Position numbers and translations under genes: made by a program. A stretch of 64,000 nucleotides of DNA from Antedon mediterranea. Its lineage: Eukaryota; Animalia; Echinodermata. Location: contig NC_092673.1 in assembly GCF_964355755.1 (NCBI RefSeq), positions 17,171,648 through 17,235,647 of the forward strand, in the 5' to 3' direction. The stretch's first letter is position 1. Each line of letters begins with the position of its first letter. The notes under the pieces are model-generated. The model saw only the letters and a list, made by a program, of their open reading frames with translations, made no database searches and had not been told where the DNA came from. This document shows positions 360-64,000 of the stretch, piece after piece.

Positions 360-3300
360 ATGGAGAGGTATGGTTTTTCAAATTTATTTAAAATACGAAT
401 AAACTAACTTTCAATTATTTGTTGCTACTTATTTTACTTTTTTAAATTTCATTTTGATGGCGCTTTTAACAAAGTGTCAACAAAAAAATATATATCAAAA
501 GACCATAGAGATGTATTGTCCTCCAAAAACATGACAAAATGAAGATTAATTAAATCAGACTTTGAATAGGTAGTTTTAATAAAGTAAATCTCTTCCATAG
601 AAAAGAAAAACAAACAAAAAAATTTTTTCACTTACAAAATAAATGGTTAAATTTAACTAGAAACCTATTGGCTGGCTGCCAGCCAATTTGACTGTTTTTT
701 GGTTTAAATTACAGTTGTTTCAGGTAAATAATGTTTTTTTCTATTCAATTGTGGATAACTATTATGTGACAATAAAATGGCATATTCAACAAAAAAATGT
801 TTAGAATTATTTTTTCAGGGGGACAATACATCTTTAAGTATGAAAAAAATTCAAATTTAAACATGCAATCAGGCCTGTCATGAACACTGACATCATCTGG
901 CATTCATTTGGTCATCTCACTTTCTAGATCTTAAGAGATCTTAAGTGGACTTTTTGAAAGTGTAAAGTTAGGTTGACTTACAGTAAAGGGCAATTTGTAT
1001 ATTATTTCAATATAGAAATAGGTAATTCCAAACCTTTTAGGATAATATAGAAGTTTATAACTTTCATTTTGACAGGAACAATTTAGAAAAAGCTTTGGTC
1101 AGGAATGATTTGGAAACAGTTGAACGACTTTGTAGGACGCAACCAGATCTTGTGAAAACTATCGATGAGGTATAACTAAATATAATCAGACTTTGAATAG
1201 GCCTTGGCAGTTTTAATAAGTTATTCACTTCCATAGAAAAAAAAAATTTTTCTTTTACTAAAAACCATTGTCTGATGGACAACTTGACGATTTGTTGCTT
1301 AAATTACAGTTTTAATTTTTTTTATGATCCAATTTTGGTCAAAGTGATTTGAACATTCTTTTAAATAAAATTTTATGAAATTCACATTTTTGCTATTACT
1401 ACTTGCCTTAATAATAGGCTTTTTCATTTTCCCTCTTGTCTTTTCTATATTAAAAAATTTGTATTTAAAGATGTATTGTCCCCCTGAAAAAAATTATTAA
1501 AACTTTTTTGTTGAATATGTCATTTTAATGTCACATAATAGTTATCCACTTTGACCAAAAATTAGATTAAAAAAATATATATTTACCTGAAATAACTGTA
1601 ATTTAAAGCAAAAAAATAGTCAAATTGGTGGCCAGCCAATTGATTTTTGGTTGAATTTAACCATTTATTTTGTCATTTTATTTAATTTTTTTTTTCTACG
1701 GAAGTACACAATAACCTATTCAAGTCTGATCTAATTAATCTTCATTTTTCATGTTTTCATGTTTCTAAACTTTACTTAAAATGACCTCGGTGATAATAAC
1801 TGATAATTTATCAATAAAGATGACAATTAAGATCATTTACTACAGTACAGTACATTATTTAATAATTGTTGTATTGACAGAAATCCAATTTCACACAATG
1901 TCTGTTTATGATTATGATTCCTTTACAGGATGGAAACATTCCACTGTATGTATATTTGAGTGGTGACCTAATTAACCCTACTTTAGCAATCATAAATTGT
2001 CTCTTAAATCATGGTGCATCAGCAACATTGCAAAATAAGGTAATTTACATAGATTTTCGTGAACCATTCTATTTTTTATTTCAATAATGACGATTAGAAT
2101 TAGAATTGTTTACTAAATTACTGTATTTAGCAGTAATTGTTACTATATTGACAAAATAAACATCATCTGTTGTCAGTATTATTTATAAACTTCATGATTA
2201 TGATTCCTTTACAGGATGGAAACACTCCACTGCATGTATATCTGAGTGATGATAGACAAATACAACCTACTTTAGAAATAGTGACATCCCTTGTTGCATC
2301 AGCAACATTACAAAATAAGGCAATTTATTTTCTTTGAATAATGACAAGATTATTTGTTACATTGTTTTGCTGTAATGGTTGCAATAATTTCCATTGACAG
2401 AAAACCAATTACACATTTGTAATGTAAACTCTAAACTCTTTACTATATTTTATGTTTATTTTTATATACCTCTTTATCAACTCAAACCTATGATACTGTA
2501 GGACAATTTAATACAGTACCTATATTACCATGTTGGTAATGATTTTTCTTTATGTTTTTGCAAATAGTTTAAGAACCTGTATCCGTCATATAATGTATTG
2601 TTTTGATGTATTATGTTAAATTGGATGCACCACTTCTGTGTGTGCCACCGATGCAAAGGTGTCATTTCCTAATAAATTATTATTATTATTATTATTACAT
2701 AAACGCTATTATTAGTATTTATAAACCTCATATATTATGATTCTTTTACAGGATGGGAACACTCCATTACATGTATATCTGAGTGGTGAATTTAATCATA
2801 CCTTAGAAATAGTGACTTGTCTTGTACAGCACAGTACATCAACCACATTGCAAAATAAGGTATTATAAAATTGCTAATGTAAGCTAACATTCTTTATCTA
2901 CTGCAGTAAACTTTTATATTTTTCTTTTATATCAATAATGACAATTTACGATTACTACATAATTTAGCAGTAATTGTTGCTATAGTTTGTATTGACAGAT
3001 AACATTTTTTTGTCTGTTTTCAGTATTTATAAACTTTATAATTATGATTTCTTTACAGGATGGGGACACTCCATTACATGTATATCTGAGTGATGGATTT
3101 AATCATACCTTAGAAATAGTGACTTGTCTTGTACAGCAATGTACATCAGCAACCATGCAAAATAAGGTAATGTACAGAGATTTAGATCTGTTGTGGTAAA
3201 CCATTCTATTGTTTAAATAATGACAATATTATTTACTAAATTACTTATCCAATAATTGTTGTATTTAAAGAGAAACACTTTCGTTCGCTTACCCTCTAGG

Positions 3301-6300
3301 AGTTCACAAAAACATGACCACGACCCAGGAAATCAGAAACCCGGGCCAGACCTATGCATATTACATATGATTACTGAATTATACATTTTTTTTTTTGGTG
3401 AAATTTCATGAGGGGTACCCAACTTGCGTACAAAAACCAAAATATAGCGACCTGGGTAGTAAAGCTAGTGTGATTATTTGGAAGTAACAGAGTTGAGGTT
3501 GGTAACAGAAAGGCTGTTTAGGACTGTTGTTATGACATCTTGATGACGTTGTAAGAATGTTAAAATGCAGGTTTTTCTTGGGCATAGTATAATCAGCGAT
3601 ATTACAGAAATTATGAATAGGGAAACAGAACTATAATATTTGGCAGTGTATGAGATTTGATTCCCAGATCTGAGCCTGCTACTGAGAATGAGTATGATGA
3701 GACGCAAAATATCATTTATGATTAATTATGTCTATTGACCACACACATCATAAGAATATAATTTTAAACATTTTGCAAATTGATAATGTGTTACCTGAAA
3801 CATAAAATAATAGACTTTATGGTACACAGGAGGGAAAGTCAATGCATCAATCACTAACACAGTCTGAGTGGTTATGTTATGTGCAATTTGAACGACTTGC
3901 GCAATTTGAAATTGCTCAATGATTTCCTTAAGTATTTGATTATCAAAACGCATTTTACATATTACAGATGTCTGTTATCAATATTTTAAAAGTCATGACT
4001 ATGATTCCTTTACAGGATGGAAACACTCCATTACATGTATATCTGAGTGGCAATTATGACCCTACCTTAGAAATGGTGACATGTCTCCTAAATCAGGATG
4101 CTTCAACAACATTGCAAAATAAGGTAATTTATAGGAAATTTTCAGTGTAATAGGCTAACAATCTATATCTTCTGCGGTAAACATTCTCCTCCCCCCCCCA
4201 CTCATTTTATCATAGGCCACAAGACATTCTATTGTTTCTGATGTTATTCTATAATTTGTTAATGTTATACAATGTTAATTGTATGGTTCACATCTCATCA
4301 AAAGTTCTCTAAAATGTGTGGCAATTTTGATACCTTTTATACCCCCTTTGCTCATAGGGTGTACAATTGTATATGTAATTCTCTGACACATATCTCTATG
4401 ATTCATTGTACAAAATTAAATAAATTATTGAGGTGCCCATACACCATATTTGTAGTGGGCCCTTTTAAGCCTCAGTTGAATTAGACAATCAAAAATGGCA
4501 ACTCCTGTGGCAGGCCATTGCTCAAATAAACTGGATATTTTGTGGAGTACATTTGATATAGTCCACAATATCAACTTTCAAAATGTTTACAGCTATTGCA
4601 AACAATTCACATAATGTCTGTTGTCATTATTTATAAACTTTATGATTATAATTCCTTTCCAGGATGGAAACACTCCATTACATGTATATCTGAGTGATAG
4701 ATATCACCCTACCTTAGAAATGGTGGCTTATCTGAAACAGCATGGTGCACCAGTAACATTGCAAAATAAGGTAATGTAAAAAGAATTGTCAGGACAATCA
4801 GCTGCGGAAACATTTTTTTTGTTTCGTTGTTTATCAATAATGGCAATTATTATTAGATTATTTAGATTTACATATGTGAACTTTATTCAATCAATCGTAC
4901 ATTTTTTTAGGTGTCTAGAAAACTCAGATCTCGGATATACCTGAGTTTTCTAGATCTAGAAAACTCGGATATCTGACTTTTCTAGTTCCAAAATGGAGTT
5001 TTCTAGACACCCCATTTTTTGGTATTATAATGGTAAACATAAAGTGTATTTACAGTGATTTTTACCAAAAAAAATATTAATTATAAAATATATATATTGA
5101 TTATTTACAGTAATGATAATAATAAGAATGAATTTAATTATATTGACTATAATTTTTTTCGGTATTTATTTATAATGGTAACCATAATAACGTGTATTTA
5201 CAGTGTTTTTTACTTTTAATAGAAATAGTAAATACTATTCTCGTCTAAATTTAATATTTTGTCCAACGCAGCCAATGATGCTCTATCAACCAATCACTAG
5301 ACAGTAAATGTTTGAGCCATGATATGATACTGTATCAATTAAATAATATTCTGATACTTCTCTAAACTCATTTTTATAGGAAGGAAATACACCCATCTCT
5401 GTTTTGAAAAATAACAAGCAGATACAGGACCAAGAAAAAAATGAAATTTTAAATTTTTTTGAAAGTAAGTGAAGTTTTAATTATCAAGATTTTGGGGTAA
5501 ACCAATTTTCATTGCAAAGGACAGATGTTCAATTTCTTTTTCCAATGCTTTGATAAACTGATTTTGAAAATGTTCTCATACTGACCATATGATGAGCTCT
5601 GTAAATTGTGTGCATGTACGGTATCCATGCATTGTGCTATTGAAAAACTCTTTAAACTTATAGAGAATCATTGTGAGGATGTAGGTAATTTAATTATAAT
5701 TTCTGAACCATGCCTTATATAGATGTGAATGAATTATGCACATTTACAGGTTTGATAGTTTTCTTCTTTCATTAGCATTGACTATAATCACAAATGATAC
5801 AGTCATTAAAAATACAATTCACGGGGTAGGGGTACAAAAACGGTTTTTAGAGTCAAAGTAATATTGATGGATAATATGGTGCATAATTAGCAAGCAAGGT
5901 GATTGTTTACAACTGGAAATGTTTTGTGATCGATTAGGAGCTACCTGTTTCAGAGCATAGATTTCATTTTTATGAGTTATTATAGGGGTCAAAAGGCTAT
6001 TATTGACCTCTCAATAATTTATTTTGGGATCAATTGCTTTCCCTGACAAACCTGTTTCTGTGTATAAGTAGTGCGTCATTAATGCACTACAAGACCAACA
6101 TATGATATATTAGGGACTTTTAGATTTGAGTGAACGTGAACTAAATCCACGTCCACATGGGTCGTAGTCGACTGTTACTCGTCGACAGATATATGAGCGC
6201 AACCTTTTTTGACTCCGACCCTTGATCCTATTTTGGTAATTCTCGCGACCCAACATTGCGTATTTGAGCCACAGACCTGCCATGTTAAGTGACACCCATA

Positions 6301-9300
6301 GATGGCCGGAAATGGTACTGTCGCACGTAAAAATCCATATAAAAGGCACCTCTAGTCCACTATAATAATAGCGCGCTCGCAATTGGCAAAAGGATCGTAG
6401 CCTACTTTTTCCGCCGGTACACACATTTGTGTTCAATGCTAACATCCCGAACCATAAAAAGTTCCCCTGGCTAGGAACAACATCGCTATGAGTGTAATTT
6501 GGGAGGGACCTGTTTCTATTGAATGTTCATTGTAAATGTTCCCACCGCCGGTACATCAAAGGATGCACTTTTTCAGTCAAGTTACACACTCATTGCAAAC
6601 TACAGAACAATAGCGTCATAGAACCAGTTGGTAGATTATTAAATCCACGCCCTAAAAGGGGATTCCCCACTTGTATATTAGCAACCAACTATGTGTCAAA
6701 AGCGTCCATTGGCCCGTCGTCAATTCCCAATTGTGTGTACGCTACTCGCCTCAAAAAAAAAACTGTAGATGTAAAATATAATTAGCCTTTGTAGATTACC
6801 TTTCACATCTAGATCAGTTTATACTTTCTAAAAGGTTTCAGTATCTGAAACATTCTCGATCCATCAATTTGTTTTCGCGACCCAAACATTGGGTCTTGAC
6901 CCATAGGTTGCGGAACAGCGGTTTAGATTAAGTGGATATTTATGTTGACGTGCCAGTGAACTTATGACGTAATGACCTTGGGATCATCTGACCTTGTAAT
7001 CTCTAGCAGCGCTCGTATAAAGTATTATACAAAATTGGGAGAAACATATAAAAAAGGAAGTCTCATATGATGATATATGATATGATAATATGATTAAGAT
7101 GATAATGACATAGAAGTTGGTGATATTGAGGATATTACTCAAAAATTTAGGATTTATAAAACAAAGAATATACTGTAACTTATTATTATAGGAATAAAAT
7201 AATTAGAGTGAGTAGTTTTTTTGTAGTTGTTTCTAAAAGCTGATTATAGATATAGAAAATTGTTGAATTGAATTAATATTATAATCATATTCAAACACTG
7301 ATGATGATTTAAACAATACTTATAACAATGCTGAATTTATTACTTAAAATTGAAAATGATTTTGTGGACTTTCTTGAATTTTTATTCATAAATCTTAAAA
7401 CAGTAATTATGATAAGAATGCTATCTACTGAATTTATTACTTAAAATGGGAAATTATTTTGTGGTGTTTCAAGTAATAATATTCAAATAATGATTGTGAT
7501 GCTAATCTATTGAATTTATTGCATTGGAAAATATTGCTCTGTTTTATGAATTTATATTTATTATTCATAATCTTTAAAAAGCAATTACAATTTCCACAAT
7601 AATCATGATAAGTGTTATAGTGTAGGCCACTATGTAATTTCGTGTCATTTTTTTGTTAAAAGCAAAATTCCAGCTGATTTAGTGTCTTTAGGATGTAAAG
7701 TAATGAAAAAAATATGTTGCCATTTTTTTAAAAAAGCTTAAGGGTGTCAAATCCAAGATGGCCGCCAATACGTAAAATATCCAATAAATGTACCATATTG
7801 GACAAAGTAACACCCATTATGAATAATATTTTAAGTTCATATGGGTTCTCTGCTATATAAGAATTATTATAAACTTATATTCATTAGTATTCTGACATTT
7901 TGAATTTCAAAATCGCCGCCATTTTTAAAAAATGGATTAAATTTCTTATTAAAACATGTGCAAGTTATGACGTTGATTGAAATCACATAAAATGATAGGC
8001 CTATGCCAACAACATTGGTGATTAACACAAAATGGCGGCCATTTTGAATTTTAAAATGGCCGCCATTTTTTAAAAATGGGTTAAATTTCTTATTAAAACT
8101 TGTATAAGTTAAATAAAATTAGATTGAAATACATATACAAAATGATATGCTTATGACAACAACATGGTGATTAACACAAAATGTACAGTACTGACAGAAC
8201 ACTTCTTCATATTAAAACATCTCATAAATTTCTTCAGTTAAATGACAACTAACTCTGCCAAAGTCCTTCAATTAAATATTTCTAATCTTGAATGCGATAC
8301 AGTAAGTTGACCTTCCTTCGTTCTCTACTACTGTATCCATCGAACTTCCACAGACTGATCTGCGTTCCCAACAACCTTGTTCAGAAACAAATTGGCAAAA
8401 TAACTGAAATACCTCATTTCACCGGCAAATAATCTCTATGGGAGTCTTCTTTTACTTTGATAAGTTTGTCACCTGTATTCACAGTCATATATATTTTTTG
8501 CCAATATTCGTCTTTTTCTTAGGATCCCATATAGACAGTTTTCCTTCTACAAGACTTTTACCAATGCCTCAAACATTTTCTGTCCAATTTCATCATGCCA
8601 TGGCCAACAAACACCTTTGTGCGAATTGCAGCATTCTTCATTAATCGGGATATCATCTCTCTTTAAATGTTAACTAGATTTGCCAGCTCTGATGAAATCA
8701 TTAATTTGTGTTATTCCAATGATACTACGCTCAATGACCCTGATCAATTGATGTAAATCCAGCAAGTCCCACACATACATGTCCTCTCATATACATAGGG
8801 ATATAGTTTAACCACATCATTTAGATTTCGTCGACTCTCTGTATTCAAGTTAATATCTTTATGATCAGCCTCTTTCAAACAAAATGATACTTAACTTAGA
8901 ATGTCTTTCTCTGTCTGCATTTGAAGAAGCAAGTTGTAGAGAGAAAGCAGAATTAGTGTGCTTTTGTCCTTTAGAGATGTTTTCCATTTAAGATATTTGT
9001 GTAACTGGTTGTATAGGTAATACAAGTCCACAAAAGCACTTGCTCAACACTATTTTCACAATGCTACATGTCCAAAAGCCATATAGTTTACCGGGTCGAC
9101 ATAATAATTGCTTTTTGATGTCATCTCTGTCCACCTCCACTCATCTCGGGCAGGAGTCATCACCAGGCATTCTTGTCTTTCCCTAGTACACGAGTTTTTA
9201 TACCACAACCATGTGCACTCATCAAACCAGTGTATAATGCTGGTCTGTCTGTAGGGGGTACATATCTAATGAAATTGGTTGAGATTGCAGAAGATGAGAA

Positions 9301-11330
9301 GTAGGAGTTCATTCATTTACAATGTTATTTATAGGCAGAGCTGTATCTGTATTTCCTTCAAGCTTCTGCCAAAAGTTGACAGGTTGAAAACTTACCAACC
9401 ACTATACTGGTGACTATGGCCCTGAAGGTTCAGACATTGAATTACATAGCAATAACGAATTTATTATTTACCATATTTATACAGGATTTCACAATAAGGT
9501 ATAAATGCACTTGTTTTATATTGTGGTCCTGTCTCCTGTCAAGTTTCAGTTTCATGAAAAGAAATGAGATCTGTAATTTAGAATCTATATATAAATTATG
9601 GTTAATTCTGATATATATAGGCGAGCACAATGGAAAAACTTTTGAACAAATTTCTGCCTTGGATACCTTCCTGAACTATCTCAGGTGTACCGCAAAATGT
9701 AACACAGTTTTCACTATTACGATATTGTTCCATATTTCTATCTTAGGAATATATTATAAAGAGTTTTAAAACAAAACTTCTGATTCATCGGTAGATTTAC
9801 AACTCAATTTTAATTACGCGTACGCGGTCAAAGTAATTTCCGAGTTCACGATGAGTTCACAGGTTCACCTTGCAACTACCTGGTTTCAGTTAAGTTGGTC
9901 GTTAGTGGCTATAGCTATTTTAGTTTTTTGTTTATTTTCGGATCGGACCGCGCGTGTGAAGGTACAGTAGTTAAAAAATAAAATCCCGATAGCCGAGTTT
10001 TATTGAGTAAGCTGGCAGGAATAACTGTAGGCTATCTGTGTCCCATTAGGGCCCATATTGCAAGCCATCTAATATAAAACATCTTCCTTCTTGGGCCGAA
10101 ACGGCCTACACTGTCACGGAAGTTAGTTTCAAAAAATGTTTAAATTAAATAATGTATTATGATGGTATTTATTTGAATAAACGCCTCCCCAATAAAACAT
10201 CACTTTGAATAATAATCGCCTACACCCACCCCACCCCACCTACCTATCTAATAAACGCCCATCCACATTAATTATACACACAATATTGTATATACTATTT
10301 ATAATAGAATTCATTACACTGTTAACTATAATTTTTTATAATTTTTTACCACTTTTCCTATCTATTAGAGGATTTTATTTCTCTTTATATCTATTTATAT
10401 CTCCCTCAAATGAACTCTGCCTCCCCACCTCCGCCCTATAAAACAATAAACACTATACTTTAAAATGTTATTAATCATCTAAGACACTGTGAAACAGAGT
10501 AGGTTTAGTTTTTCGAATGTCAAGCATTTTCAATAATGATAACCGACAGAAAACGTACAAGGAGAACGTCCTTCTAAAACCTTTTTACCCGAGTCATTAT
10601 CATTCCGAGAACCTTCGTTTACACTTCCTAGAGGGGAGCGAGCAAACTAGAGGTCTAACCCTCTAGTTAGACGTAATTGTTGTCGAATATTTGATATAAA
10701 TTGTTAAGTTGTTCCATACTTTTGCAACTCCAACTTTGAACGATTATTTAATTTAATAGTCATAGTGGGGTATTATATATCTGTTATAGAGGACATTGAC
10801 AACTTTAGCCTTATATTTACAATTTACAATCCTGTGAGAAGTGACAATTTTAGAACATTGTGTACAAACAACAATTTATGCACACATATTTTTAAAAAAA
10901 TATTTAAAGAATTTAATTTTTAGTGGCGGCCATTTTGAAATCCAAGATGGCCGACAGATTATCGCTTTACATAGTTAGGATTGTATAATGGGTACAGTAA
11001 TACCATCAAAACGGACTTGTTCCACATTCATAATTTGTATTATTGGTGATATTCTGATTTTTAATAGGGTTATTTGAATGTTGGCGGCCATCTTGAATTT
11101 GGTCCTTTAAATGTCTTTTGAAAAAATGGCAACATATTTTTTTTCATTCCTTATATTATCAAGATATGAAATAAAGTCAAAGTTTGCTTTTAACAAAAAA
11201 TATACACGACATTCATATAAACGACATACCAGCCTACACTATTATACTAAATTTATTGATACTGTTTTTTATCCATATAGATCTCTCAGAGGATGATGAT
11301 GAAGACTTAGTCACAGACTTAGTCCAATGA
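360..11330 (+). CDS. Ankyrin-repeat protein, copy 1 (10 coding exons, ~294 aa: N-cap + 6 one-exon ankyrin repeats + C-cap + acidic tail)
   Basis: Manual splicing. 360-367 (ATG GAG AG|gt). 1076-1169 (NNLEKALVRNDLETVERLCRTQPDLVKTIDE). 1929-2039 (DGNIPLYVYLSGDLINPTLAIINCLLNHGASATLQNK). 2215-2319 (DGNTPLHVYLSDDRQIQPTLEIVTSLVASATLQNK, GC donor). 2752-2859 (DGNTPLHVYLSGEFNHTLEIVTCLVQHSTSTTLQNK). 3059-3166 (DGDTPLHVYLSDGFNHTLEIVTCLVQQCTSATMQNK). 4016-4123 (DGNTPLHVYLSGNYDPTLEMVTCLLNQDASTTLQNK). 4663-4770 (DGNTPLHVYLSDRYHPTLEMVAYLKQHGAPVTLQNK). 5380-5464 (EGNTPISVLKNNKQIQDQEKNEILNFFE, phase 1). Candidate last exon 11281-11330 (NLSEDDDEDLVTDLVQ*, AATAAA at 11334). Phases are all compatible and the GxTPLH...LEIV..L..HGA ankyrin consensus is present. 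The last exon is the least certain. Confidence 0.85.
508..836. mobile_element. MITE with AGATGTATTGTCC...GGACAATACATCT termini
   Basis: Terminal inverted repeat is visible. A second copy lies inverted at ~1466-1758 and a partial copy at ~1185-1330. Confidence 0.65.
1466..1758. mobile_element. Same MITE family as 508-836, inverted orientation
   Basis: taaagatgtattgtccccctgaaaaaaa...ttgttgaatatg is the reverse complement of 780-836. Similarity continues to ctattcaagtctgatctaattaatcttcattt. Confidence 0.65.
4910..5011. mobile_element. ~100-bp palindromic MITE
   Basis: GGTGTCTAGAAAACTC at 4910 and GAGTTTTCTAGACACC ending at 5011, with internal copies of the same motif. Confidence 0.6.
7618..11241. 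mobile_element. DNA transposon, Academ-like (TAG termini, 3-bp TSD), decayed, copy 1; sits in the last intron of ankyrin gene 1
   Basis: TIR TAGTGTAGGC...GCCTACACTA with long imperfect arms and TTA on both sides. A highly similar copy lies at 23296-26817. The superfamily call rests on termini and TSD only; no intact transposase is visible. Confidence 0.7.
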
Positions 11331-11565
11331 TTCAATAAACATGGACATTTGATTCATACAATTGTTAGATGACGTTAAAGTGTTGAAAAGTGATACCAGT
11401 ACAATCTATCTGTTAACTCTTTTATCTGCGAATTGATTAGTGATTTGGTTGCGATTTAATGTTAGCGTGTCATACCTCAATGTACAATAGCGTAGGTACC
11501 TTGGTATCCCAGAATTAAAACACACTAGTTATTGTCTGTGGTGTTTTCTTTCCAAAAAAAATTAC

Positions 11566-43137: not shown

Positions 43138-43267
43138 AAATCAAAGCTTAGCAATCTAAATGAAGCATACAAGACATGATTTTGTGAAAAATGTTACAAT
43201 TAGAGAAAAAGTAAAGACTTGATTACAATAAACCAAATGAAAAACTAAATAGTTAATATGATTTATG

Positions 43268-46494: not shown

Positions 46495-47009
46495 CAGCCC
46501 CTGTTTCTCCCCCCCCCCCCTGACAAGACCCCCTTGTTACGCGGCTGCCCTTATCAATACACCAAGCCATCCATCTCGTTGGTCGAATCAGGTTTTACTT
46601 TGTATATGAATGGAGAAAAAATATATTATACGTAAGCTTTTTAACCACCCAATCAGAAGTGAGTTGACGTCGTTTCTATACTTGTGTCACCACATAACAA
46701 ACAGGCCTTCCTGAGGTTTCCCTGATCTCACAACATGCATTCAAACACCGTGTTGTCGTCTTTCATTTAAAAAAAACACAGTGTGGTGGTCTTTTGTTTT
46801 CATGATGCATCGAAACGACGAATAACTACAATGCATAGTTTGACTACTGAAACTACTTAAACTACTGAACTTTTCTATTTAATACTGAAATTTATTTTAA
46901 CAATTTGAGAACTTGCAATGCACATAGAGTATGATCATGGACCTATCTCATTTATAGGTCCATGGTATGATAAAGAAATTGGTACACTATTTAAAAAGTG
47001 TAATAAGGG

Positions 47010-47488
47010 ATCATCTCACAGTGTGTTGATTGACTTGGTACTGTAGATCATGCACTGTGGCTGCTGTGTACAATCTCACAGTGTGTTGATTGACTTGGTA
47101 CTGTACACCATGCACTGTGGCTGCTGCGTACAATCTCACAGTGTGTTGATTGACTTGGTACTGTACACCATGCACTGTGGCTGCTGTGTACAATCTCACA
47201 GTGTGTTGATTGACTTGGTACTGTACACCATGCACTGTGGCTGCTGTGTACCATCTCACAGTGTGCTGATTGACTTGGTACTGTACACCATGCACTGTGG
47301 CTGCCGTGCACAATCTCACAGTGTGTTGATTGACTTGGTACTGTACACCATGCACTGTGGCTGCTGTGTACAATCTCACAGTGTGTTGATTGACTTGGTA
47401 CTGTACACCATGCACTGTGGCTGCTGTGTACCATCTCACAGTGTGTTGATTGACTTGGTACTGTGCACCATGCACTGTGGCTGCTGTG
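47010..47488. repeat. 60-bp minisatellite, ~8 copies
   Basis: Same unit as 16852-18408. Confidence 0.95.
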
Positions 47489-50400: not shown

Positions 50401-51454
50401 GGCTAAAAAAATAAAGAAAAAAAGCTTTTATGTCATGGAAGACCTACCCCTATCTGATGTGGAAAAAAAACATCAACTAAAGGATGTAATGTCGAAGGCA
50501 TATCTAGCAGGCAAGCACCCGTCTTTTCGTAACGGCACATTGTATATAGATGGAATGCCTTATCGTGAATAGTCCTAATGACGCAATCAGAATGTAACTT
50601 GAATAGCTATTCAAGTATTTATAGCACATTGACACGTAGGCCTATTTTATATAATCGTATATTCTACCTTTAGAAGGCCTAGTAGACGTGTGCATTGCGT
50701 TTTTTATGTACATATACGAGAACCATTATGTTATGTTGGACCATCATGGACCTGATTATTTGGCGGAGCAAAGAAGCAAAGAAATTGACTATTTATTTAT
50801 AATACTTACTTTGTAATGAACTTGCATATATGTATTCATATTTTTATTAATTATGTATGTATATTTATTTATTTATGTTTTATTTATTTTACTTTTTGCG
50901 TCATGTACATTATATATAATATTAATTGTTCAACTGTATAATGATTGATAGTGTAACTTCGAATCTACCTAACTTTAATCCGTTAACTCACAACCTTGAT
51001 AATTTTGATGAGCAGTCAGCAGATTTAATCGATCAATTAAACTCGAGATCAACTACTCTTGATAACTGTTCATATTATGATTGTGACAAGTTTAATTCAA
51101 CCTTCACAAATGATTCCAATACTAGCCTTTCCCTTTTTCATCTGAACATTAGAAGTATTAAAACTAAAGTAGACCCACTCATACGTCTGTTAGACAATTT
51201 AAGCATTGATTTCTCAATAGTAGGTCTCTCAGAGACATGGCTACATGATAACTCGCCAACTCCCTCCTTACATAACTATACTATTTTCTCTAAAAATAGG
51301 TCAACTAGAATTGGTGGTGGTGTTGCTTTATTTGTTCATAATGATATAAATGTTAAAATCAGACATGACAATGACATCTTGCTTCCTCTGCCTTATGAAT
51401 CTCTATTCATTGAGCTTAGTAACCATAACAAAAAATCTACTGTTGTCGGTATAA

Positions 51455-51537
51455 GGCCTAAAAAAAAAAATTGTTTGTTTGCTGTCAAGTTTTTTTTTTT
51501 GGTAGGGGGGGGGGGGGGGGGTGGGCGGGTGGAAAAA

Positions 51538-51572
<35 letters not shown>

Positions 51573-52741
51573 GTTAATTTCTCTGTTAATTGCTCGCGAA
51601 TTTGAGAGTAACAAAACACACTGAATAAAACAACGAGCTCAAACATCTATTCATAATTTGTTTCACACTTTAATTCTGTTTTGGCCGCGTTAGGCCCCGT
51701 GTCTAAACTAGCCTAGGCTAGGCCTACTACTACACAGTAGGTCGTTGTTAGCAGGCCTAATTAAATATTTTAATTTTTAGAAGTTAGTGTACCATATATT
51801 TCGGTGTAATAAGTCGCACCTGTGTATAATAAGACGCACCCGACCCCTAACTGAGAATAAAATATCGGTATTTTGTATATCGTCGATGTATAAGACGGCC
51901 GCGTCCAGCCTCATCAAGAAGGGAAGTCCCCCATTCCGTCAGTTCTTTCTAACTTGTTATGAATGAGTTTCGCACCCGCAACATCGAGTGCATGATGACC
52001 GCACGTGTGTGTGGGCTAGCCTCGCTCGATTCTTTTATCGAGAGGCGCACGTTTTCACGGACAATCGTATTCGATTAGTATCTATGTATCCTAGAAGTGT
52101 GTACCCTAGGTCTATGCTATAATCAACTGGAGAATATACTAGTCGAATACTGTGTACACAATGTGGTTGCCAAGAAGGGCTCGCTCGCGCTGGGGGTACG
52201 ACGGTCGTGCGTATAACTATAATACTATTCCAATCGTAAACGTCGTTTTCAAATGAAATTTTATCGGAGCGCCTAAAACAGCTCCATAATGAACAAATCT
52301 TTTCATCATACTTGAAAACTAGCAGGTTGCTGTTACGCTAGTACACTGTAGCTAGGCTAGGCCTACTCTTTAGACTTTAGTAATACTAATAGGCCTAGGC
52401 TAGGCCTTACCTTAAAAAGCCCAGGCCTACCCAATGAGGTGGCGATCTGTGTGTTGAGGCATTTATGTTCGGTGTATAAGACGCACCCTTAATTTAGAGG
52501 TTAAATTTGCGTGTCAAAAGTGCGATTATACACCGAAATATACGCTACGTTATTATTTTTATTGTTTCATCCTCGCACACTCGATTTTTACACCTTTTCG
52601 GCCAAAAAAAATTATTAAAAAAACTTTTTTTTTAAAGCGCCCTCAACGTAAAAAAAAAACTTTTTCTTATTTCCGCCCCAAATTTTTGGCAAAATTAGGG
52701 GCGGCGGATGACAGCAAACAAACTATTTTTTTTTTTTGCCC
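51455..52741. mobile_element. Zator-like non-autonomous element inserted in the LINE endonuclease
   Basis: GGCCTAAAAAAAAAAA..TTTGTTTGCTGTCA / TGACAGCAAACAAA..TTTTTTTGCCC with TSD TAA. Removing it restores VVGIIYRPP. Confidence 0.8.
51792..52545. mobile_element. Tigger/pogo-like MITE nested in the Zator-like element
   Basis: TA-CCATATATTTCGGTGTAATAAG...TTATACACCGAAATATACGC-TA, with internal tataagacgcacc repeats. Confidence 0.7.
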
Positions 52742-55700
52742 TAATATACCGTCCACCTGGAAGTTGTATTGACCATTTTTCTGAATCACTAGACAGTGTT
52801 CTAAGTAAAATTGATTCTGAAAATAAGAAGTGTCACATTATGGGGGATATAAATATTGATCTAATTAAATATCATAATCATCCCAGCACTGGAAATTATC
52901 TTGATCTACTTCTTTCACATTCTTTTTATCCCACTATATCGAAACCTACCAGAATAACTACAACAACTGCCTCTCTAATTGATCACTTTTATACCAACCA
53001 AACTCATTCTAATATTTCCTCCGGTGTTCTTATTACAGATATTTCTGACCATCTTCCCATTTTTTAACTTATTCATGATGACCAATGCCATTATAACAAG
53101 CCTACTGATAGACAGTCTCCCCGCATACAGGATGTTAATGCCTTTTGTAATGACATCATAAACGAAGATTGGTCTGAAGTTTATAACGCCACACCTAATC
53201 TCGCTTTTGACACATTTTTATTAAAATTCTATAATATACATGATAAACATACCACCTATAAATCTGTACCCAAAACTAAAATGTCTAAACAACCATGGAT
53301 GTCGCCTGGTCTTAAAAAATGTAGTAAAAAAAAGCAAAAATTATACAAAAAATTTATTTTATCACAAGATCCTAATCGCAAACTAACATACACAAAATAT
53401 AACAATATGTTTAATAAGCTTTGCCGCACTGCAAAAAAGAATTATTTTTCTTTACAATTTGACACGGTCAAAGGCAATCTTAAAAAAACCTGGTCCATTA
53501 TTAATTCTGTTTTATCCCCTAATAAGTCAAGTCGAAACTATCCCAAACAACTTACAATAAATGACAATACCATTACATCTGAAATAGATATTTGTAATCA
53601 ATTTAATAAATATTTTTCTCAAATTGGCACTTCACTTAAAAATGCAATGCCAGATTCCTTAATTAATCCAAAATCATATCTTCCTGATCCCCTTCTCCAT
53701 TCTTTCTTTATAAATCCTGTAACTGAACATGAAGTGATGATAATTATAAATGATCTTGATCCAAAGAAAGGAGGTGGCGATGATAGAGTTACACCATACA
53801 TTATTAAATTGATTTCTCCATTCATTATTAATCACCTTACGTTCTGTATTAATTCATCTTTTTCTTCAGGTAGTTTTCCCAATTATTTAAAGTTAGCAAA
53901 AGTTATTCCAATTTTCAAGAAAGGTAGACAAGATATACTTTCAAATTACAGACCCATTTCACTACCTTTTCCAAAATCATTGAAAAATTAATGTACTCCC
54001 GTCTCTATGAGTTCCTGGATTGCAATAACGTACTCTTTGCTCATCAATATGGTTTTCGTAAATCTCATTCCACTTCACATGCAATCCTTGATCTCATAAA
54101 TAATGTAACAAACTCCTTTGAAAAAAGACAATTTTTGTTATCTGTCTTTGTCGACTTATCCAAGGCCTTCGATATTATAGATCACCGTATACTTATTAAT
54201 AAACTTAACAATTATGGAATCAGGGGTATTACCTTAAACTGGTTTCGTAGTTACTTAAGTATGAGGAAGCAATATGTCTCGTTTGGTAATTGTATATCAC
54301 CAGAGGAAGAGATGACATGTGGGGTGCCACAAGGGTCGGTTCTTGGCCCTCTCCTTTTTTTAATTTACGTAAATGACTTATCCAGAGTCAGTGACACCCT
54401 CCATGTCATCTCCTTTGCTGATGACACTACACTATTTTTTTCTCATTCAGATTTAAAAGTTTTATTTTCTATAGTTAATAATGAATTGTCAAAATATAAT
54501 GACTGGTTCATCTCAAATAAACTCCTTATAAACTCCATGAAACCAATTACATTCTTTTTCATACACAACGTCAATCGTTAGACCTTACTGATTACAATAT
54601 ATTTATTAATGGAGATAACATTAAACAAACGTCAGAGACTATGTTCCTTGGTGTTTTAATCCAGGAAAACTTGAGATGGACCAGTCATCAGAATCATATT
54701 GCAAATAAAATTTCTAAAACAATTGGGATTATAAATAATCTTAAGCACACTTTTCCCCGGCGTATCCTTCTTTCATTATATAATTCTTTAATTTTACCTC
54801 ATCTTTATTATTGTAACATTATTTGGGCTGCTGACTATCCATCACATCTCGATAAACTTAATAAGCTGATTAAGCGTGCTATTAGAAATATTACTTGTAC
54901 GTCTCGCATTACTCCATCTGAACCTTTATTTTATGAACTTAAGTTACTGAAGTTAGGTGATATACATAAATTGCAAAGTGCCTCTTTTGTCTTTCAATAT
55001 TTTTCTAACAATCTTCCTTCTCCCATGATGAATTTATTTAACACTGCTGATTTCAACCATGGTCATAATTTAAGAAGTACTGTTCATAAGTTTCAGTTAA
55101 CTATTCCTTTTGTAAGATTAACTAGTTCTTCCCACTTTATTTATGTTTCTGGCCCTTTAATTTGGAATCAATTAGATACTAGTATTGTTAACTCTTCCTC
55201 TCTCCCAACTTTTCGTAAAAAACTTAAAAGTAATTTGTTATCATTGTACTCAAACTAGACCTTCAAACTGTTTTTGTCATGACTTTTTTTTATTTTATTT
55301 AATAATTATATACAAATGTATTTTTTTCTTTTGTTTATGGGTCTTGCGTGACAAGTATTCTCTTCTTGCAAGAGCCTCTATTAATGGTATTTTTTGTATT
55401 TTCTCATTATAAATTATCATTCTTTTTTATTGTATTGTTATACCATTGATAGAAACTAATAAATGTTGAATTATTATGGCCACACGAATGTAAAATATAG
55501 GATTTTTATCTTTTTCGTTATTGCTCATCACATTCAATGGAGTTTTCTCCAAGATTTTAAAATTGTTTAGGTCAATCAACTATCTTTCGCATGAGTTAAA
55601 AATATTTTAATTTTTATGACGTCATCATGTCTAAAAATGTAAATAACGTGGTTCACTTATTTTCATCTTTACAGTAAATTTCAATCTGTTATAGCTCGTA

Positions 55701-58745: not shown

Positions 58746-60080
58746 CAGGGCTCGAAATTTACTTTTTTTTCGACTAGCAAACTTTGCTAGTTGTAAAAAA
58801 ATTAACTAGCAAAATCAGCAGCATAACTAGCAATCACAATTTTTTTCGGTAAAATAGTTAAATTCTACATAAATCTGAATTTATTTAGGTGTAGACCTAG
58901 GCCTAGCTTTTAGGTGTAGGCCTAGCTAGCTAGGCAAAGCTGTAGTAGTAGTAGTACTCTTTTTAGCCAAATTAAAAAAAGATCAAGACATGCTTTCATG
59001 CTAGCCAAATCATGGTCGTTTCGGCCTATGGACGATTCGTCCCACTTTTTTTAGGTTGAAACATCAAACTTTTAAAATTTGAAGCGGAACAAAATTGACT
59101 AGGCCTATGTATAAAATATTATTGCCGATGAAAAAACTGAGTTTTATATTGTTTATATCCAGACGTAATTAAAACATTAAATTTAATTGCCACCGAGCGA
59201 AATTGGTAGGCCCTAAACTAATCCGTCCAAGCTACGCCCGCCGTCTCTCGCGCTCCACTCGTACGTCTCTATCCAGGAAATTCACTATCGCACGAGAGAG
59301 GCATGATGTTGGAATAATAGTGGGCTGATCAATAGTTTGAAAACAGCTTACGGCATTTCTTAAGTGAATTTTTATTCAACGTATTCTTCTTTGATGAATC
59401 CTTTGCCCATTGCAGTGTATATCCATGGAGTATACTCCATGGTATATCAGTAATTAAAGTTGTGATGCGAAAGTGTGTGTAATTTAATTCCACAGGTAAA
59501 CAATAGGCATAAGCAAATCCATCGCACAAACAACAGGTACCTCGTGGTGTGCCGAGGAGACGTTCTTCTCGAGCGCGAGATCATAAACAAAATTGGAAGA
59601 GTCCATTAAGTGGGGGGTGTTTACTATTTACGAATCTATTAAATACGCGCTTTGACCACTGTGTAGGCAAAATATTTATTTCGTTAAATCCCTAAATTGA
59701 TAATCGCGTATTCTGTAATCACGTGACTGATGATGTAATCCTTAGCGACGTACTAAATGCACATGCTTTTGTGTTGGGGGAAAAGCTTGCTGTTTATAAT
59801 GCACATCGTTAACAACTATGCTACCACATGATTCACGGTGCTATTCGCGTTTCCTTGACGTAAATTGGCGGCGTGTAAATGAAACAATTGTTTTCACCAA
59901 ATTGGTTCCTATTAGCCGTTGTCGACATAGCGATTGGCGGCTAGCGTGGCTAAGCTAAAAAGTACGTATTTTTTCAAAATTCACACTAGCAAACATTTGC
60001 TAGTTTTGAAATTTTCAACTAGCAATTATCAAGAATCTACTAGCAAAATGCTAGTTTGCTAGCGTGAATTTCGAGCCCTG
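58746..60080. mobile_element. hAT-like element with a 5-bp TSD, inserted into the 31-bp minisatellite
   Basis: TIR CAGGGCTCGAAATT...AATTTCGAGCCCTG with CATCT on both sides and ctagcaa subterminal repeats. It is absent from copy A. Confidence 0.85.
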
Positions 60081-60258
60081 CATCTTCATGCAGTAACACC
60101 AGCATACAGGTCATCTTTCATTCATTTAATGCAAAGGTTTCTGTCTGATGGAATTATGTTTTACATTTCATATTTTCAGAAGAGAATGTGTAGGCTTACT
60201 TTTACACTAGAAGCTGTCGGCATTAATAATTGTTAAATGAAGACACTGTATTTTTGCA

Positions 60259-63200
60259 ATGGAAAGGTACGTTTTTAACAATTATTTCAAACAAAAATAA
60301 CCAGCTCCAATATGTGTTGATATTATTGAAATATGTAACTATTAAAAACAAATTAAAATGTTTGAATAGTTATATTGACATACATATATATAACATACTT
60401 TATAATCAGAATTTATAGTTCAAACAAAAAGAAAACACTTTGATTTTAAGATATTCTTTTGAGAAAAATACTTCAAACTTTCTTAAAAGATTATAAAATC
60501 CAAAATTATTTCTTTCTTTCTTTAAAAATTATGAAATCATAAATATTACAATTAAAGCGCTTATTCTCATTAAATATAATAATAATAATATTTCCATCAA
60601 TCATCATTCTCATTAAATACACGGGTATAAATGGATTATTTCTTACATTTTAACAGGAAACATTTGGTAGAAGCTTTGTCAAGGAATGATTTGAAAACAA
60701 TTAAACAAATCTGTAAGACGCAACCAGATCTTCTGAAATCTATCAATGAGGTATAAAAACAGATATATTTTTATAATATTATCAAAGAAGAAATTCTTTT
60801 CATTAAAGTTTAAAATTATAGAGGATGTAATTTTATTTAATAGTTTAAAGCTTTTTTACTTAATGAATTACAATTCTTTTGCATTATCACACTGATGATG
60901 GAGGTATAACCTGCATATACTGATTAACCACATTAGGCTAAAAATAATAATATAAATACACACTGATGATGGAGGTATAACCTGCATGTACTGATTAACC
61001 ACATTAGGCTAAAAATAATAATATAAATACACACTGATGATGGAGGTATAACCTGCATGTACTGATTAACAACATTAGGCTAAAAATAATAATATAAATA
61101 CACACTGATGATAGGGGTATAACCTGCATGCACTGATTAACAACATTAGGCTAAAAATAATAATATAAATACACACTGATGATGGAGGTATAACCTGCAT
61201 GTACTGATTAACCACATTAGGCTAAAAATAATAATATAAATACACACTGATGATGGAGGTATAACCTGTATGTACTGATTAACCACATTAGGCTAAAAAT
61301 AATAATATAAATACACACTGATGAAGGAGGTATAACCTGCATGAACTGATTAACCACATTAGGCTAAAAATAATTTGCTAGTGTAATAGGCTAACATTCT
61401 ATAGATATGCTGTGGTAAACCATTCTATTTTGTTCTACTCATTTATTAATAATGATAATTATGATTATTTACCACAATATTTAGCAGCAATTGTTGTTGT
61501 TTGTATTGACAAAAAACAAACAATTTCACATAATGTCTGTTGTCAGTATTTATAAACTTCATTATGATTCCTTTCCAGTATGGTGACACTCCATTACATT
61601 CATATCTGGTGATTGGATATACACCTACCTTAGAAATAGTGACGTGTCTCATTCAGCATGAGGCACCATTAGCATTGCAAAATAAGGTAATGTACAGGGA
61701 TTTGCTAGTGTAATAGGCTAACATTCTATAGATATGCTGTGGTAAACCATTATATTTTGTTCTACTCATTTATTAATAATGATAATTATGATTATTTACC
61801 ACAATATTTAGCAGCAATTGTTGTTGTTTGTATTGACAAAAAACAAACAATTTCACATAATGTCTGTTGTCAGTATTTATAAACTTCATTATGATTCCTT
61901 TCCAGAATGGTGACACTCTATTACATTCATATCTGTGGAGTGGATATACACCTACCTTAGAAATAGTGACTTGTCTCATTCAGCATGGGACACCAGTAGC
62001 ATTGCAAAATAAGGTAATGTACAGGGATTTGCTAGTGTAATAGGCTAACATTCTATAGATATGATGTGGTAAACCATTCTATTTTGTTCTACTCATTTAT
62101 TAATAATGATAATTATGATTATTTACCACAATATTTAGCAGCAATTGTTGTTGTTTGTATTGACAAAAAACAAACAATTTCACATAATGTCTGTTGTCAG
62201 TATTTATAAACTTCATTATGATTCCTTTCCAGGATGGTGACACTCCATTACATATATATCTGTGGAGTGGATATACAACACCTACCTTAGAAATAGTGAC
62301 GTGTCTCATTCAGCATGGGGCACCAGTAGCATTGCAAAATAAGGTATTGTACAGGGATTTGCTAGTGTAATAGGCTAACATTATATAGATATGCTGTGGT
62401 AAACCATTCTATTTTGTTCTACTCATTTATTAATAATGATAATTATGATTATTTACCACAATATTTAGTAGCAATTGTTGTTGTTTGTATTGACAAAAAA
62501 CAAACAATTTCACATAATGTCTGTTGTCAGTATTTATAAACTTTATTATGATTCCTTTCCAGAATGGGAACACTCCATTACATTCATATCTGGGGAGTGT
62601 ATATACACCTAACTTAGAAATAGTGACGTGTCTCATTCAGCATGGGACACCAGTAGCATTGCAAAATAAGGTAATGTACAGGGATTTGCTAGTATAATAG
62701 GCTAACATTCTATAGATATGATGTGGTAAACCATTCTATTTTGTTCTACTCATTTATTAATAATGATAATTATGATTATTTACCACAATATTTAGCAGCA
62801 ATTGTTGTTGTTTGTATTAACAAAAAACAAAAAATTTCACATAATGTCTGTTGTCAGTATTTATAAACTTCATTATGATTCCTTTCCAGGATGGTGACAC
62901 TCCATTACATTCATATCTGGTGCATGGATACGCTATCTTAGAAATAGTGACGGGTCTCATTCAGCATGGGGCACCAGTAGCATTGCAAAATAAGGTAATG
63001 TACAGGGATTTGCTAGTGTAATAGGCTAACATTCTATAGATATGCTGTGGTAAACCATTCTATTTTGTTCTACTCATTTATTAATAATGATAATTATGAT
63101 TATTTACCATAATATTTAGTAGCAATTGTTGTTGTTTGTATTGACAAAAAACAAACAATTTCACATAATGTCTGTTGTCAGTATTTATAAACTTCATTAT

Positions 63201-63537
63201 GATTCCTTTCCAGGATGGTGACACTCCATTACATTCATATCTGTGGGGTGGATATACACCTACCTTAGAAATAGTGACTTGTCTCATTCAGCATGGGACA
63301 CCAGTAGCATTGCAAAATAAGGTATTGTACAGGGATTTGCTAGTGTAATAAGCTAACATTATATAGATATGCTGTGGTAAACCATTCAGCAGCAATTGTT
63401 GTTGTTTGTATTGAAAAAAAACAAACAATTTTACATAATGTCTGTTGTCAGTATTTATAAACTTCATTATGATTCCTTTCCAGGATGGTGACACTCCATT
63501 ACATATATATCTGAGGAGTAGTTTTGTTTTGATTTAG
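60259..63537 (+). CDS. Ankyrin-repeat protein, copy 3 (young tandem array; the 3' end probably lies beyond the window)
   Basis: Exons: 60259-60266. 60657-60750 (KHLVEALSRNDLKTIKQICKTQPDLLKSINE). 61579-61686 (YGDTPLHSYLVIGYTPTLEIVTCLIQHEAPLALQNK). 61906-62013 (NGDTLLHSYLWSGYTPT...). 62233-62343 (DGDTPLHIYLWSGYTTPT...). 62563-62670 (NGNTPLHSYLGSVYTPN...). 62890-62994 (DGDTPLHSYLVHGYAI...). 63214-63321 (DGDTPLHSYLWGGYTPT...). Broken unit from 63484 (DGDTPLHIYLRS then SFVLI*). The six complete repeat exons are all AG/GT and phase 0. Confidence 0.85.
60890..61374. repeat. 69-bp minisatellite, ~7 copies
   Basis: Same unit as 42001-43137. It directly abuts the ankyrin array. Confidence 0.95.
61375..63519 (+). 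repeat. 327-bp tandem array (219-bp intron + ~108-bp ankyrin exon), ~6.5 units
   Basis: Exon starts at 61579, 61906, 62233, 62563, 62890, 63214 and 63484. Spacing is 327/327/330/327/324/270; the last intron carries a 57-bp deletion. Confidence 0.97.
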
Positions 63538-64000
63538 ATATTCATTTATAAGTCAACTATAATTGTAATGTGTTGTTGTTGTTTTAATATTTCATTTGTA
63601 TCTGGATAGTATCCAAATATTATTTTCTTTGAAAGTTTATAGTAAAACTATTTGTTGTTTTATATTATGGCTCAAACATTTTAACACATCTACCTACTGT
63701 TCCAAAGTAAACTTTTATTCAATTTATCTCTCTCTCTCTCTCTCCTCCATCTTTCAATGTTGAAGGAGGTAGACTATAAACAGCAGCACTCAAGTTTTGG
63801 TTTGGATACAGGAGTTATAGGTGGCGCACTGTACAAGTTGATTTCATTTATTAGCAAATATTAATTTCTATTCACGTCCTAATTTACAACCAATGTTAAA
63901 AAATAGTAAATCTATGTGTTATCACGTGATGCTCTTTCATCCAATCTCTAGATGGTAAATGTTTGAGCAATGACTGTATGTATGTGATGCGTATTAAAGT

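What the first reader, a model, noticed from the sequence alone, without database searches (positions are those of the whole stretch)
61375..63519. Natural DARPin-like variable ankyrin array: near-identical introns, hypervariable binding-surface codons
Seen: each 327-bp unit is one phase-0 exon encoding exactly one ankyrin repeat. The five full-length 219-bp introns differ from consensus at only 1-4 sites each (manual count). The exons vary more, and mostly non-synonymously; I found only 3 synonymous variant sites (GGT/GGG, TAT/TAC, ACG/ACT). Variation concentrates at the beta-turn (Y/N/D-G-D/N), the residue after TPLH (S/I) and the end of helix 1 (VIG, WSG, WSG, GSV, VHG, WGG, RS), with in-frame 3-nt indels in the following loop. 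The scaffold LEIVT.LIQH..P.ALQNK is nearly fixed. Established: these are the target-contacting positions of ankyrin repeats, largely the x positions of the DARPin consensus DxxGxTPLHLAAxxG. Comparable logic is known for fungal NLR WD/ANK/TPR repeats, one-exon LRRs of brown-algal ROCO genes and lamprey VLR cassettes. Inference: a diversifying, probably intracellular (no signal peptide or TM segment seen) non-self or immune recognition protein built from shufflable cassettes. I do not know of this being described for an ankyrin-only animal gene family.
Basis: partly seen in the sequence, partly recalled or inferred. Interest (0 to 1): 0.92.

Follow-up and report, generated by a model that had tools for sequence, protein, structure and literature searches.

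The report
Feather-star shuffled ankyrin sensor cassettes
A feather-star gene builds its binding end from near-identical exon-intron units, one ankyrin repeat per exon, in which a few surface residues change far faster than the introns; it is likely the sensor end of a signalling GTPase (ROCO) family and may serve non-self recognition, much as proposed for brown-algal ROCO genes.

Summary
There are six complete phase-0 exons, each one ankyrin repeat, and five 219-nt introns that differ from consensus at 1-4 sites.

Exons vary more than introns, also after correcting for a 12-fold GC-to-AT bias (likelihood ratio 20, omega about 11 at codons 1, 8, 11 and 12). The units have recombined: 18 of 55 site pairs fail the four-gamete test. 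One public run holds exon-to-exon joints for this repeat type.

The 'ankyrin-only' reading is doubtful. The gene runs off the window, and its relatives are crinoid (Antedon, Anneissia) proteins built as N-cap, ankyrin repeats, C-cap, Roc-COR and often a death-fold domain; 12 of 14 capped Antedon models continue into Roc. The match to DARPin randomised positions is partial (4 of 6 vary, p=0.15).

Best reading: the diversifying sensor end of an expanded ankyrin-ROCO family, the animal, ankyrin counterpart of brown-algal LRR-ROCO exon cassettes. An immune role, a Roc-COR in this very gene and any somatic shuffling are not shown. New variant of a known kind.

The parts
60259..60266 (+). Coding part of exon 1 (start codon, 8 nt, phase-2 donor)
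   Evidence: same layout in paralogues at 360 and 41371; with exon 2 it gives the N-terminus of Antedon model P0003
60657..60750 (+). Exon 2, N-terminal capping helices (94 nt, ends in phase 0)
   Evidence: 93.8% identical to P0003 residues 3-34; two helices in the P0003 model
60888..61374 (.). 71-bp minisatellite, 6.9 copies, inside intron 2, abutting the array
61373..61578 (+). Intron part of unit 1 (last 206 of the 219 nt; no difference from consensus)
61579..61686 (+). Ankyrin exon 1 (36 aa)
61906..62013 (+). Ankyrin exon 2 (36 aa; Pro to Leu in the TPLH motif)
62233..62343 (+). Ankyrin exon 3 (37 aa; one extra codon in the inter-helix loop)
62563..62670 (+). Ankyrin exon 4 (36 aa)
62890..62994 (+). 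Ankyrin exon 5 (35 aa; one codon fewer in the loop)
63214..63321 (+). Ankyrin exon 6 (36 aa)
   Evidence: joints from its last base back to an exon start in run X5
61687..63213 (+). Span holding the five 219-nt phase-0 introns (61687-61905, 62014-62232, 62344-62562, 62671-62889, 62995-63213)
63322..63483 (+). Intron 6, 162 nt: 57-nt deletion and 5 substitutions against consensus
63484..63519 (+). Broken seventh exon: 12 codons, no phase-0 donor; likely skipped, otherwise reads into a stop
   Evidence: other copies join from a full exon's intron start to 63523 (table 5)
63882..63998 (+). Sequence like the intron just before the C-cap exon of paralogue A; the C-cap exon is predicted to start about 30-35 nt past the window end
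   Evidence: 41 of 47 nt match to 5276-5322, E 9e-10; longer alignment
360..11331 (+). Older paralogue A: start exon, N-cap exon, six diverged one-repeat exons (1929-4770), C-cap exon 5380-5464, short tail exon from 11281 ending in a stop
   Evidence: matches Antedon model P0005
41371..44754 (+). Relic paralogue B: exons 1-2, expanded 71-bp minisatellite, an intron remnant, no ankyrin exon
   Evidence: 41193-42485 is 96.9% identical to 60081-61374

Best explanation
The array is a run of one-repeat ankyrin exons that have exchanged sequence and whose surface codons change faster than the introns, and it is likely the ligand-sensing end of a gene of the crinoid ankyrin-ROCO family, with a C-cap exon and probably Roc-COR predicted beyond the window. 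How it would work: (1) shown in sequence: every unit is phase 0, so gain, loss or skipping of a unit keeps the frame. (2) Shown in pattern, inferred in mechanism: near-identical introns let units mispair, and unequal crossing-over or gene conversion homogenises and reshuffles them. (3) Statistically supported: selection keeps new residues at codons 1, 8, 11, 12 and the following loop, the beta-turn and helix-1 face that binds partners in ankyrin proteins. (4) Inferred from relatives and established ROCO biology: binding of a fast-changing cytosolic target, most likely from a pathogen or parasite, would switch the Roc-COR GTPase dimer and signal through a DED-like end towards cell death or defence. 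Short members without Roc would act as spare cassettes, decoys or adaptors.
For: Family: the best relatives are Antedon mediterranea models with Ank + Roc + COR-A (+ DED-like). The Roc-COR search gave 26 crinoid proteins among 27 hits (11 Antedon including the query, 15 Anneissia). Of 23 Antedon models examined, 17 have ankyrin repeats, 14 of these reach the C-cap, and 12 of those 14 carry a Roc P-loop; G1, G3 and G4 are all present in P0001, P0004, P0012, P0016 and P0123. The six repeats lie in one supported clade (95/89) with P0003, P0006 and P0008, and P0008 continues into C-cap and Roc. Selection: intron-calibrated M2a versus M1a gives LRT 25.0, p=3.7e-6; with a free GC-to-AT bias 20.1, p=4e-5, omega 10.7 on 24% of codons, posterior 0.93 or more at codons 1, 8, 11 and 12; with the exon rate freed from the introns 7.6, p=0.022. 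Tree-free test stratified by base: p=0.0055 for 6 units. Per-position variability correlates with five other arrays (Spearman 0.53, p=0.0009). Recombination: 18 of 55 informative pairs are four-gamete incompatible. Splicing: run X5 has joints from the exon end to an exon start and 5 loose ends that read into a next exon; the three other runs laid list no such joint. Fold: P0003 models at pLDDT 89.9 and matches DARPins at TM about 0.8.
Against: No Roc-COR lies in the window and the gene's 3' end could not be read. Paralogue A next door ends in a short tail with a stop. Two of the three closest models (P0003, P0006) end before a C-cap. Plain counts give pN 0.090 against pS 0.045-0.057 on only about 27 synonymous sites. 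Recombination and double-base changes inflate site-model tests, which I ran in my own script on one of several tied trees. With intron 6 included the tree-free test drops to p=0.032. The rest of the exon varies as much as the introns, so purifying selection on the scaffold is not shown (p=0.62-0.93). The seventh exon is broken. X5 is only guessed to be RNA, and at 80% likeness its joints cannot be assigned to this gene. DED scores are below Pfam's cut-off. There are no functional or immune data.
Confidence: 0.58

Rival explanations
1. A stand-alone, DARPin-like protein (N-cap, six repeats, C-cap, short tail) that diversifies but carries no GTPase, acting as a free binder, decoy or adaptor derived from the ROCO family.
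For: Paralogue A in the same window has this layout and matches model P0005. P0002 joins its repeats to DED-like ends without Roc. Brown algae also have repeat-only loci beside their ROCO genes (PMC11378527, passage).
Against: 12 of 14 capped Antedon models go on into Roc; the closest capped relative, P0008, has Roc.
Confidence: 0.22
2. A recently amplified, decaying or relaxed gene copy. Exon differences were imported in patches by gene conversion from older paralogues, or built up under relaxed constraint, with no current selection on this array.
For: Broken seventh exon, deleted intron 6, relic paralogue B and transposons in the cluster. The scaffold is no more conserved than the introns. 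Many divergent copies could serve as donors (193, 288, 187 and 22 contigs laid). New repeat copies commonly evolve under relaxed plus positive selection (PMC5120217, abstract).
Against: None of the six exons has a stop or frameshift, and both indels are whole codons. The excess sits at a few codons and survives the mutation-bias correction. Imported patches would still reflect earlier selection on the same surface.
Confidence: 0.15
3. The family diversifies for a non-immune reason, such as allorecognition, gamete recognition or control of selfish elements.
For: No call ties it to infection; fungal proteins with such repeats are known from allorecognition (PMC13449251, passage).
Against: Relatives carry DED-like, Death and HEPN domains, which are typical of counter-invader systems (PMC8195603, passages).
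Confidence: 0.05

Closest known systems
Brown-algal LRR-ROCO genes with one LRR per exon (Zambounis et al., PMC3341825; Teng et al., PMC11378527)
   Same: One repeat per exon in a constant phase, inactivated exons inside the array, positive selection on the concave face, clustering and pseudogenes, repeat-only loci beside Roc-COR genes.
   Different: Ankyrin instead of LRR, phase 0 instead of phase 2, an animal, DED-like ends in relatives. No exons on the opposite strand were seen here, and alternative splicing was not tested.
Fungal NLRs with highly conserved ankyrin repeats (Dyrka et al., PMC4986451; PMC13449251)
   Same: Near-identical ankyrin repeats, concerted evolution, selected sites on the inner helix and the beta-hairpin.
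   Different: The switch in relatives is a Roc-COR GTPase, not NACHT or NB-ARC; the repeats are N-terminal and each sits on its own exon with a homogenised intron.
Crinoid ankyrin-Roc-COR(-DED) models, all named 'uncharacterized' (XP_071964198.1, XP_071964214.1, XP_071947615.1, XP_071948802.1, XP_071948736.1)
   Same: Same N-cap, same repeat type of 35-37 residues, same C-cap as paralogue A; one clade with P0003, P0006 and P0008.
   Different: No model with these six repeats was found. Anneissia members have a few diverged repeats, not a homogenised array.
Designed ankyrin repeat proteins (DARPins)
   Same: Capped stack of near-identical repeats; the P0003 model matches DARPin structures at TM about 0.8.
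   Different: Natural; a longer inter-helix loop of variable length; only 4 of 6 randomised positions vary; probably fused to further domains.
DAPK1 (ankyrin, Roc-COR and death domain; layout from my own knowledge)
   Same: Ankyrin, Roc-COR and death-fold parts in one animal protein.
   Different: DAPK1 is a conserved kinase; no kinase domain was found in these crinoid proteins and the family is expanded.

Membership tests
Ankyrin repeat (PF00023) | Match to the whole repeat profile | tested here: met
   All six exons match positions 1-33; 4 of 6 exceed the curated cut-off
Ankyrin repeat (PF00023) | Stacked helix-loop-helix fold | tested here: met
   Tested on relative P0003, not on this gene's own product: pLDDT 89.9, DARPin matches
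ROCO proteins | Roc and COR in the same polypeptide as the repeats | not testable with these tools
   None inside the window; the gene runs off the end and no genome is held. Met in relatives
ROCO proteins | Intact G1, G3 and G4 GTPase motifs | not testable with these tools
   All three are present in 5 of 23 Antedon models, many of the others being partial; unknown for this gene
Brown-algal-type exon-cassette receptors | One repeat per exon, constant phase | tested here: met
Brown-algal-type exon-cassette receptors | Diversifying selection on the binding face | tested here: met
   LRT p=4e-5 to 0.022 by model, with the caveat of recombination
Brown-algal-type exon-cassette receptors | LRR as the repeat | tested here: not met
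   Ankyrin; so it works like them but is not a member
Brown-algal-type exon-cassette receptors | Inverted repeat-exons on the non-coding strand | tested here: not met
   All full-repeat tblastn hits in the window are on the + strand
Brown-algal-type exon-cassette receptors | Alternative splicing of repeat exons | not tested
   One search shows exon-to-exon joints but cannot tell which exons are joined
Fungal-type NLRs with highly conserved repeats | Repeats over 85% identical | tested here: inconclusive
   83-92% to unit 6
Fungal-type NLRs with highly conserved repeats | NACHT or NB-ARC domain | tested here: not met
   Crinoid relatives carry Roc-COR instead; the gene's own 3' end is unseen
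Fungal-type NLRs with highly conserved repeats | Repeat-number polymorphism between individuals | not testable with these tools
   Short contigs do not span the array
DARPin-like design | Variation confined to the six randomised positions (recalled: 2, 3, 5, 13, 14, 33) | tested here: inconclusive
   4 of 6 vary; enrichment over other codons p=0.15
Lamprey VLR-type anticipatory receptors | Somatic assembly from cassettes | not testable with these tools
   No tissue- or cell-level data

The most novel reading that the evidence does not exclude
Feather stars have a repertoire-generating intracellular receptor system: a large family of ankyrin-cassette ROCO GTPases whose near-identical introns drive frequent reshuffling, in the germ line and possibly by splicing or in somatic cells. 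Each animal would then carry its own set of natural DARPin-like sensors wired to death-fold effectors, and mussels may have reached the same design.
Probability: 0.25. Interest if true: 0.88.

Novelty: new variant of a known kind. Interest (0 to 1): 0.63.

Why it matters
If the reading holds, it gives echinoderm immunology a new candidate family of diversified intracellular sensors, in crinoids. It would also show that exon-cassette diversification of ROCO proteins arose in both brown algae (LRR) and animals (ankyrin). Because the introns supply an internal neutral clock and the hot codons are few, the questions of germ-line versus somatic variation and of what invertebrate ROCO proteins sense become directly testable. 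The variable-length loop after helix 1 is a natural diversification site that DARPin libraries, as I recall them, leave fixed.

Tried and rejected
No whole genome is held, so nothing beyond base 64000 was read.

tblastn of the C-terminal parts of 11 Antedon models against the window found only paralogue A's tail exon and no Roc-COR. The ORF at 24220-24516 has no Pfam match.

Sequencing runs: no RNA holder is listed on record; the best share of words was 0.48. I laid 4 of the 12 runs, on one stretch. Depths were not used for copy number or expression. No listed contig bridges the 63519/63520 junction, but the tables are cut and a hole proves nothing. Splicing of paralogue A and of this gene's first two exons was not examined with reads.

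The search of 50%-identity representatives gave 1288 hits at E<=0.001; its best hits that I could name are the same Antedon models, and the unnamed rest were not followed.

Sequencing or assembly error was rejected: variation clusters in exons, both exon indels keep the frame, and the five A/T-rich introns have no indels. GC-to-AT mutation bias as the sole cause was rejected. The 'concave plus loop' codon set (p=2.6e-6) was chosen after seeing the data and is not counted as a test.

Ten paper searches listed no paper describing a crinoid or other animal ankyrin-ROCO cassette family. The library lacks most subscription journals, I judged most hits from the listings, and I read no supplements; PMC11378527 mentions about forty animal ROCO domain combinations that may include this one.

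Look-ups of earlier findings by place and by sequence were empty.

Full report
OBSERVATION. The array is there. TRF reports period 327, 6.2 copies, 95% matches at 61373-63387. It holds six complete phase-0 exons of 105-111 nt, each matching the full Pfam ankyrin profile. The five 219-nt introns differ from their consensus at 1, 1, 4, 4 and 2 sites. Exons vary at 19-20 of 108 columns against 9 of 206 intron columns. The sixth intron has a 57-nt deletion and five substitutions. The seventh exon breaks off after 12 codons without a phase-0 donor. Contigs of other copies go from a complete exon's intron start straight to 63523 (table 5), so I infer a deletion in this copy. Skipping that exon would keep the frame.

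GENE ANATOMY. Upstream lie an 8-nt start exon (60259) and a 94-nt exon encoding a helical N-cap (60657-60750); with the six repeats they give 250 codons in frame. An older paralogue A at 360-11331 has the same two exons, six diverged one-repeat exons, a C-cap exon (5380-5464) and a short tail exon with a stop. The last 120 bases of the window resemble the intron just before paralogue A's C-cap exon (E 9e-10), which puts this gene's C-cap about 30-35 nt past the window end. A relic copy B (41371-44754) keeps exons 1-2 but no repeat exon.

FAMILY. The best relatives are Antedon mediterranea gene models. The N-cap is 94% identical to P0003, and paralogue A matches P0005 almost exactly, so the window is from Antedon or a very close relative. 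The long members carry Ank, Roc and COR-A, with DED-like matches below the Pfam cut-off. A search with a Roc-COR region gave 27 hits, 26 of them crinoid; some add Death, HEPN or ZU5 domains. I examined the 23 models named Antedon (one extra isoform, P0144, was left out). Seventeen have ankyrin repeats; three of these end before a C-cap; of the other 14, 12 have a Roc P-loop. The exceptions are P0005 (short tail) and P0002 (DED-like end without Roc). In a tree of 51 repeats, with few columns and many open forks, the six units fall in one supported clade with P0003, P0006, P0008 and two repeats of P0012. P0008 continues through the C-cap into Roc. Anneissia members have the caps but few, diverged repeats, so the tandem amplification of this exon type looks specific to the Antedon line. 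One double-ROCO model, P0016, ends in hydrophobic segments, so not every member need be soluble.

SELECTION. Plain counting gives pN 0.090, pS 0.045-0.057 and intron divergence 0.017-0.020; dN/dS within exons alone is weak because synonymous sites are few. I wrote a joint likelihood model for six units (introns plus codons, one parsimony tree among ties, one inserted codon dropped). With introns as the neutral rate, a class with omega above 1 is favoured: LRT 25.0, p=3.7e-6. With the exon rate free, LRT is 7.6, p=0.022. Intron changes are nearly all from G or C; allowing for that (fitted bias 11.9) leaves LRT 20.1, omega 10.7 on 24% of codons, with posteriors 0.99, 0.93, 1.0 and 1.0 at codons 1, 8, 11 and 12, 0.87 at codon 17 and 0.63 at codon 29. 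A tree-free test stratified by base gives p=0.0055 for six units and p=0.032 with the seventh. Outside the hot codons the exon varies like the introns. Variability by position correlates with five other arrays (rho 0.53, p=0.0009), and among the 12 repeats of the closest subfamily codons 8, 11 and 12 show 5, 5 and 6 residues while most of helix 2 is fixed. Against this: recombination and double-base changes inflate such tests, and the six DARPin positions (recalled, not from a call) are not significantly enriched (p=0.15).

SHUFFLING AND SPLICING. Of 55 pairs of informative sites, 18 show all four gametes, including pairs within the intron, and codon 29 alternates strictly between odd and even units. 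That fits unequal crossing-over and conversion; recurrent mutation may add some cases. Laid at 80% likeness on exon 6 and the tail, run X5 (guessed RNA, same coded organism, another sample) has joints from the exon's last base to an exon start (depths 31 and 10.1) and five loose ends after the donor. Read by hand, their consensus continues in frame like the C-cap of P0014. Runs X1, X7 and X9 list no such joint (tables are cut). This shows that the repeat type is spliced as predicted, not that this allele is. The runs gave 193, 288, 187 and 22 contigs, most with other letters, in three coded organisms: many divergent copies exist, but their number cannot be told.

STRUCTURE. P0003 folds with pLDDT 89.9 as two cap helices and three helix pairs and matches DARPins at TM about 0.8. 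The extra residues fall between the two helices. Ankyrin proteins and DARPins bind through the concave face (PMC8229355, passages). Placing codons 1, 8, 11 and 12 on that face rests on the repeat register and general knowledge, not on coordinates I measured.

MECHANISM. Shown: phase-0 cassettes, homogenised introns, mosaic units, excess change at a few codons, family architecture. Inferred: that this gene includes Roc-COR (about 0.6), that the target is foreign, and that ligand binding switches the GTPase dimer and signals through a death-fold domain. The analogy is to Roc-type GTPases with fast-evolving repeats in counter-invader systems (PMC8195603, passages) and to ROCO domains in molluscan TIR proteins (PMC9334734, passages).

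COMPARISON. Brown-algal ROCO genes have one LRR per exon, inactivated exons, selection on the concave face and repeat-only loci; somatic recombination was proposed but has not been reported (PMC3341825, abstract and passages; PMC11378527, passages and section 11). Fungal NLRs have near-identical ankyrin repeats with selected sites on the binding face (PMC4986451, passages), and such repeats are noted to occur in animal NLRs too (PMC13449251, passages and section 12). New protein repeats often evolve under relaxed plus positive selection (PMC5120217, abstract). The present case works like the first two and is a member of neither. Ten searches listed no description of it in an animal ankyrin-ROCO family; no supplements were read. 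An unchecked note of this scan reports a similar mussel gene (e1-9532795), which is a lead, not support.

VERDICT. A real feature and a new variant of a known kind. Interest 0.63.

Noticed in passing
window 26905-32877: Ty3/Gypsy-type LTR retrotransposon with 100% identical 448-bp LTRs and one 1496-codon stop-free frame on the minus strand (SCAN, protease, integrase, RT and RNase H matches; integrase lies before RT); a recent insertion.
   Followed up: partly
window 45052-46536 and 50926-55258: LINE-type reverse-transcriptase remnants, the first on the minus strand just after relic paralogue B (for the first; the second judged from its translation only).
   Followed up: partly
window 58747-60081: Insertion with terminal inverted repeats inside the 31-bp minisatellite upstream of the gene's start exon; absent from copy B, likely a DNA transposon.
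   Followed up: partly
window 2215-2319: Second ankyrin exon of paralogue A lacks three codons after helix 2 and has a GC donor.
   Followed up: no
window 7614-11246 and 23291-26821: A 3.6-kb element present twice at 94-98% identity with inverted ends; the first copy lies in paralogue A's last intron.
   Followed up: no
window 16855-18416, 47013-47488, 42000-43138, 60888-61374: 60-bp and 71-bp minisatellites whose copy numbers differ between duplicated segments (26 vs 7.9; 16 vs 6.9), a further sign of unequal exchange in this cluster.
   Followed up: no
proteins P0016, P0002, P0121, P0133: The crinoid family swaps its output ends: two Roc-COR modules with a hydrophobic C-terminus, DED-like without Roc, ZU5 with DED-like, and HEPN; some may be fused gene models.
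   Followed up: partly
proteins P0007, P0010 and similar unnamed ENA hits: Other long ankyrin-Roc proteins with highly similar internal repeats from an unnamed source, suggesting the design recurs outside crinoids.
   Followed up: no
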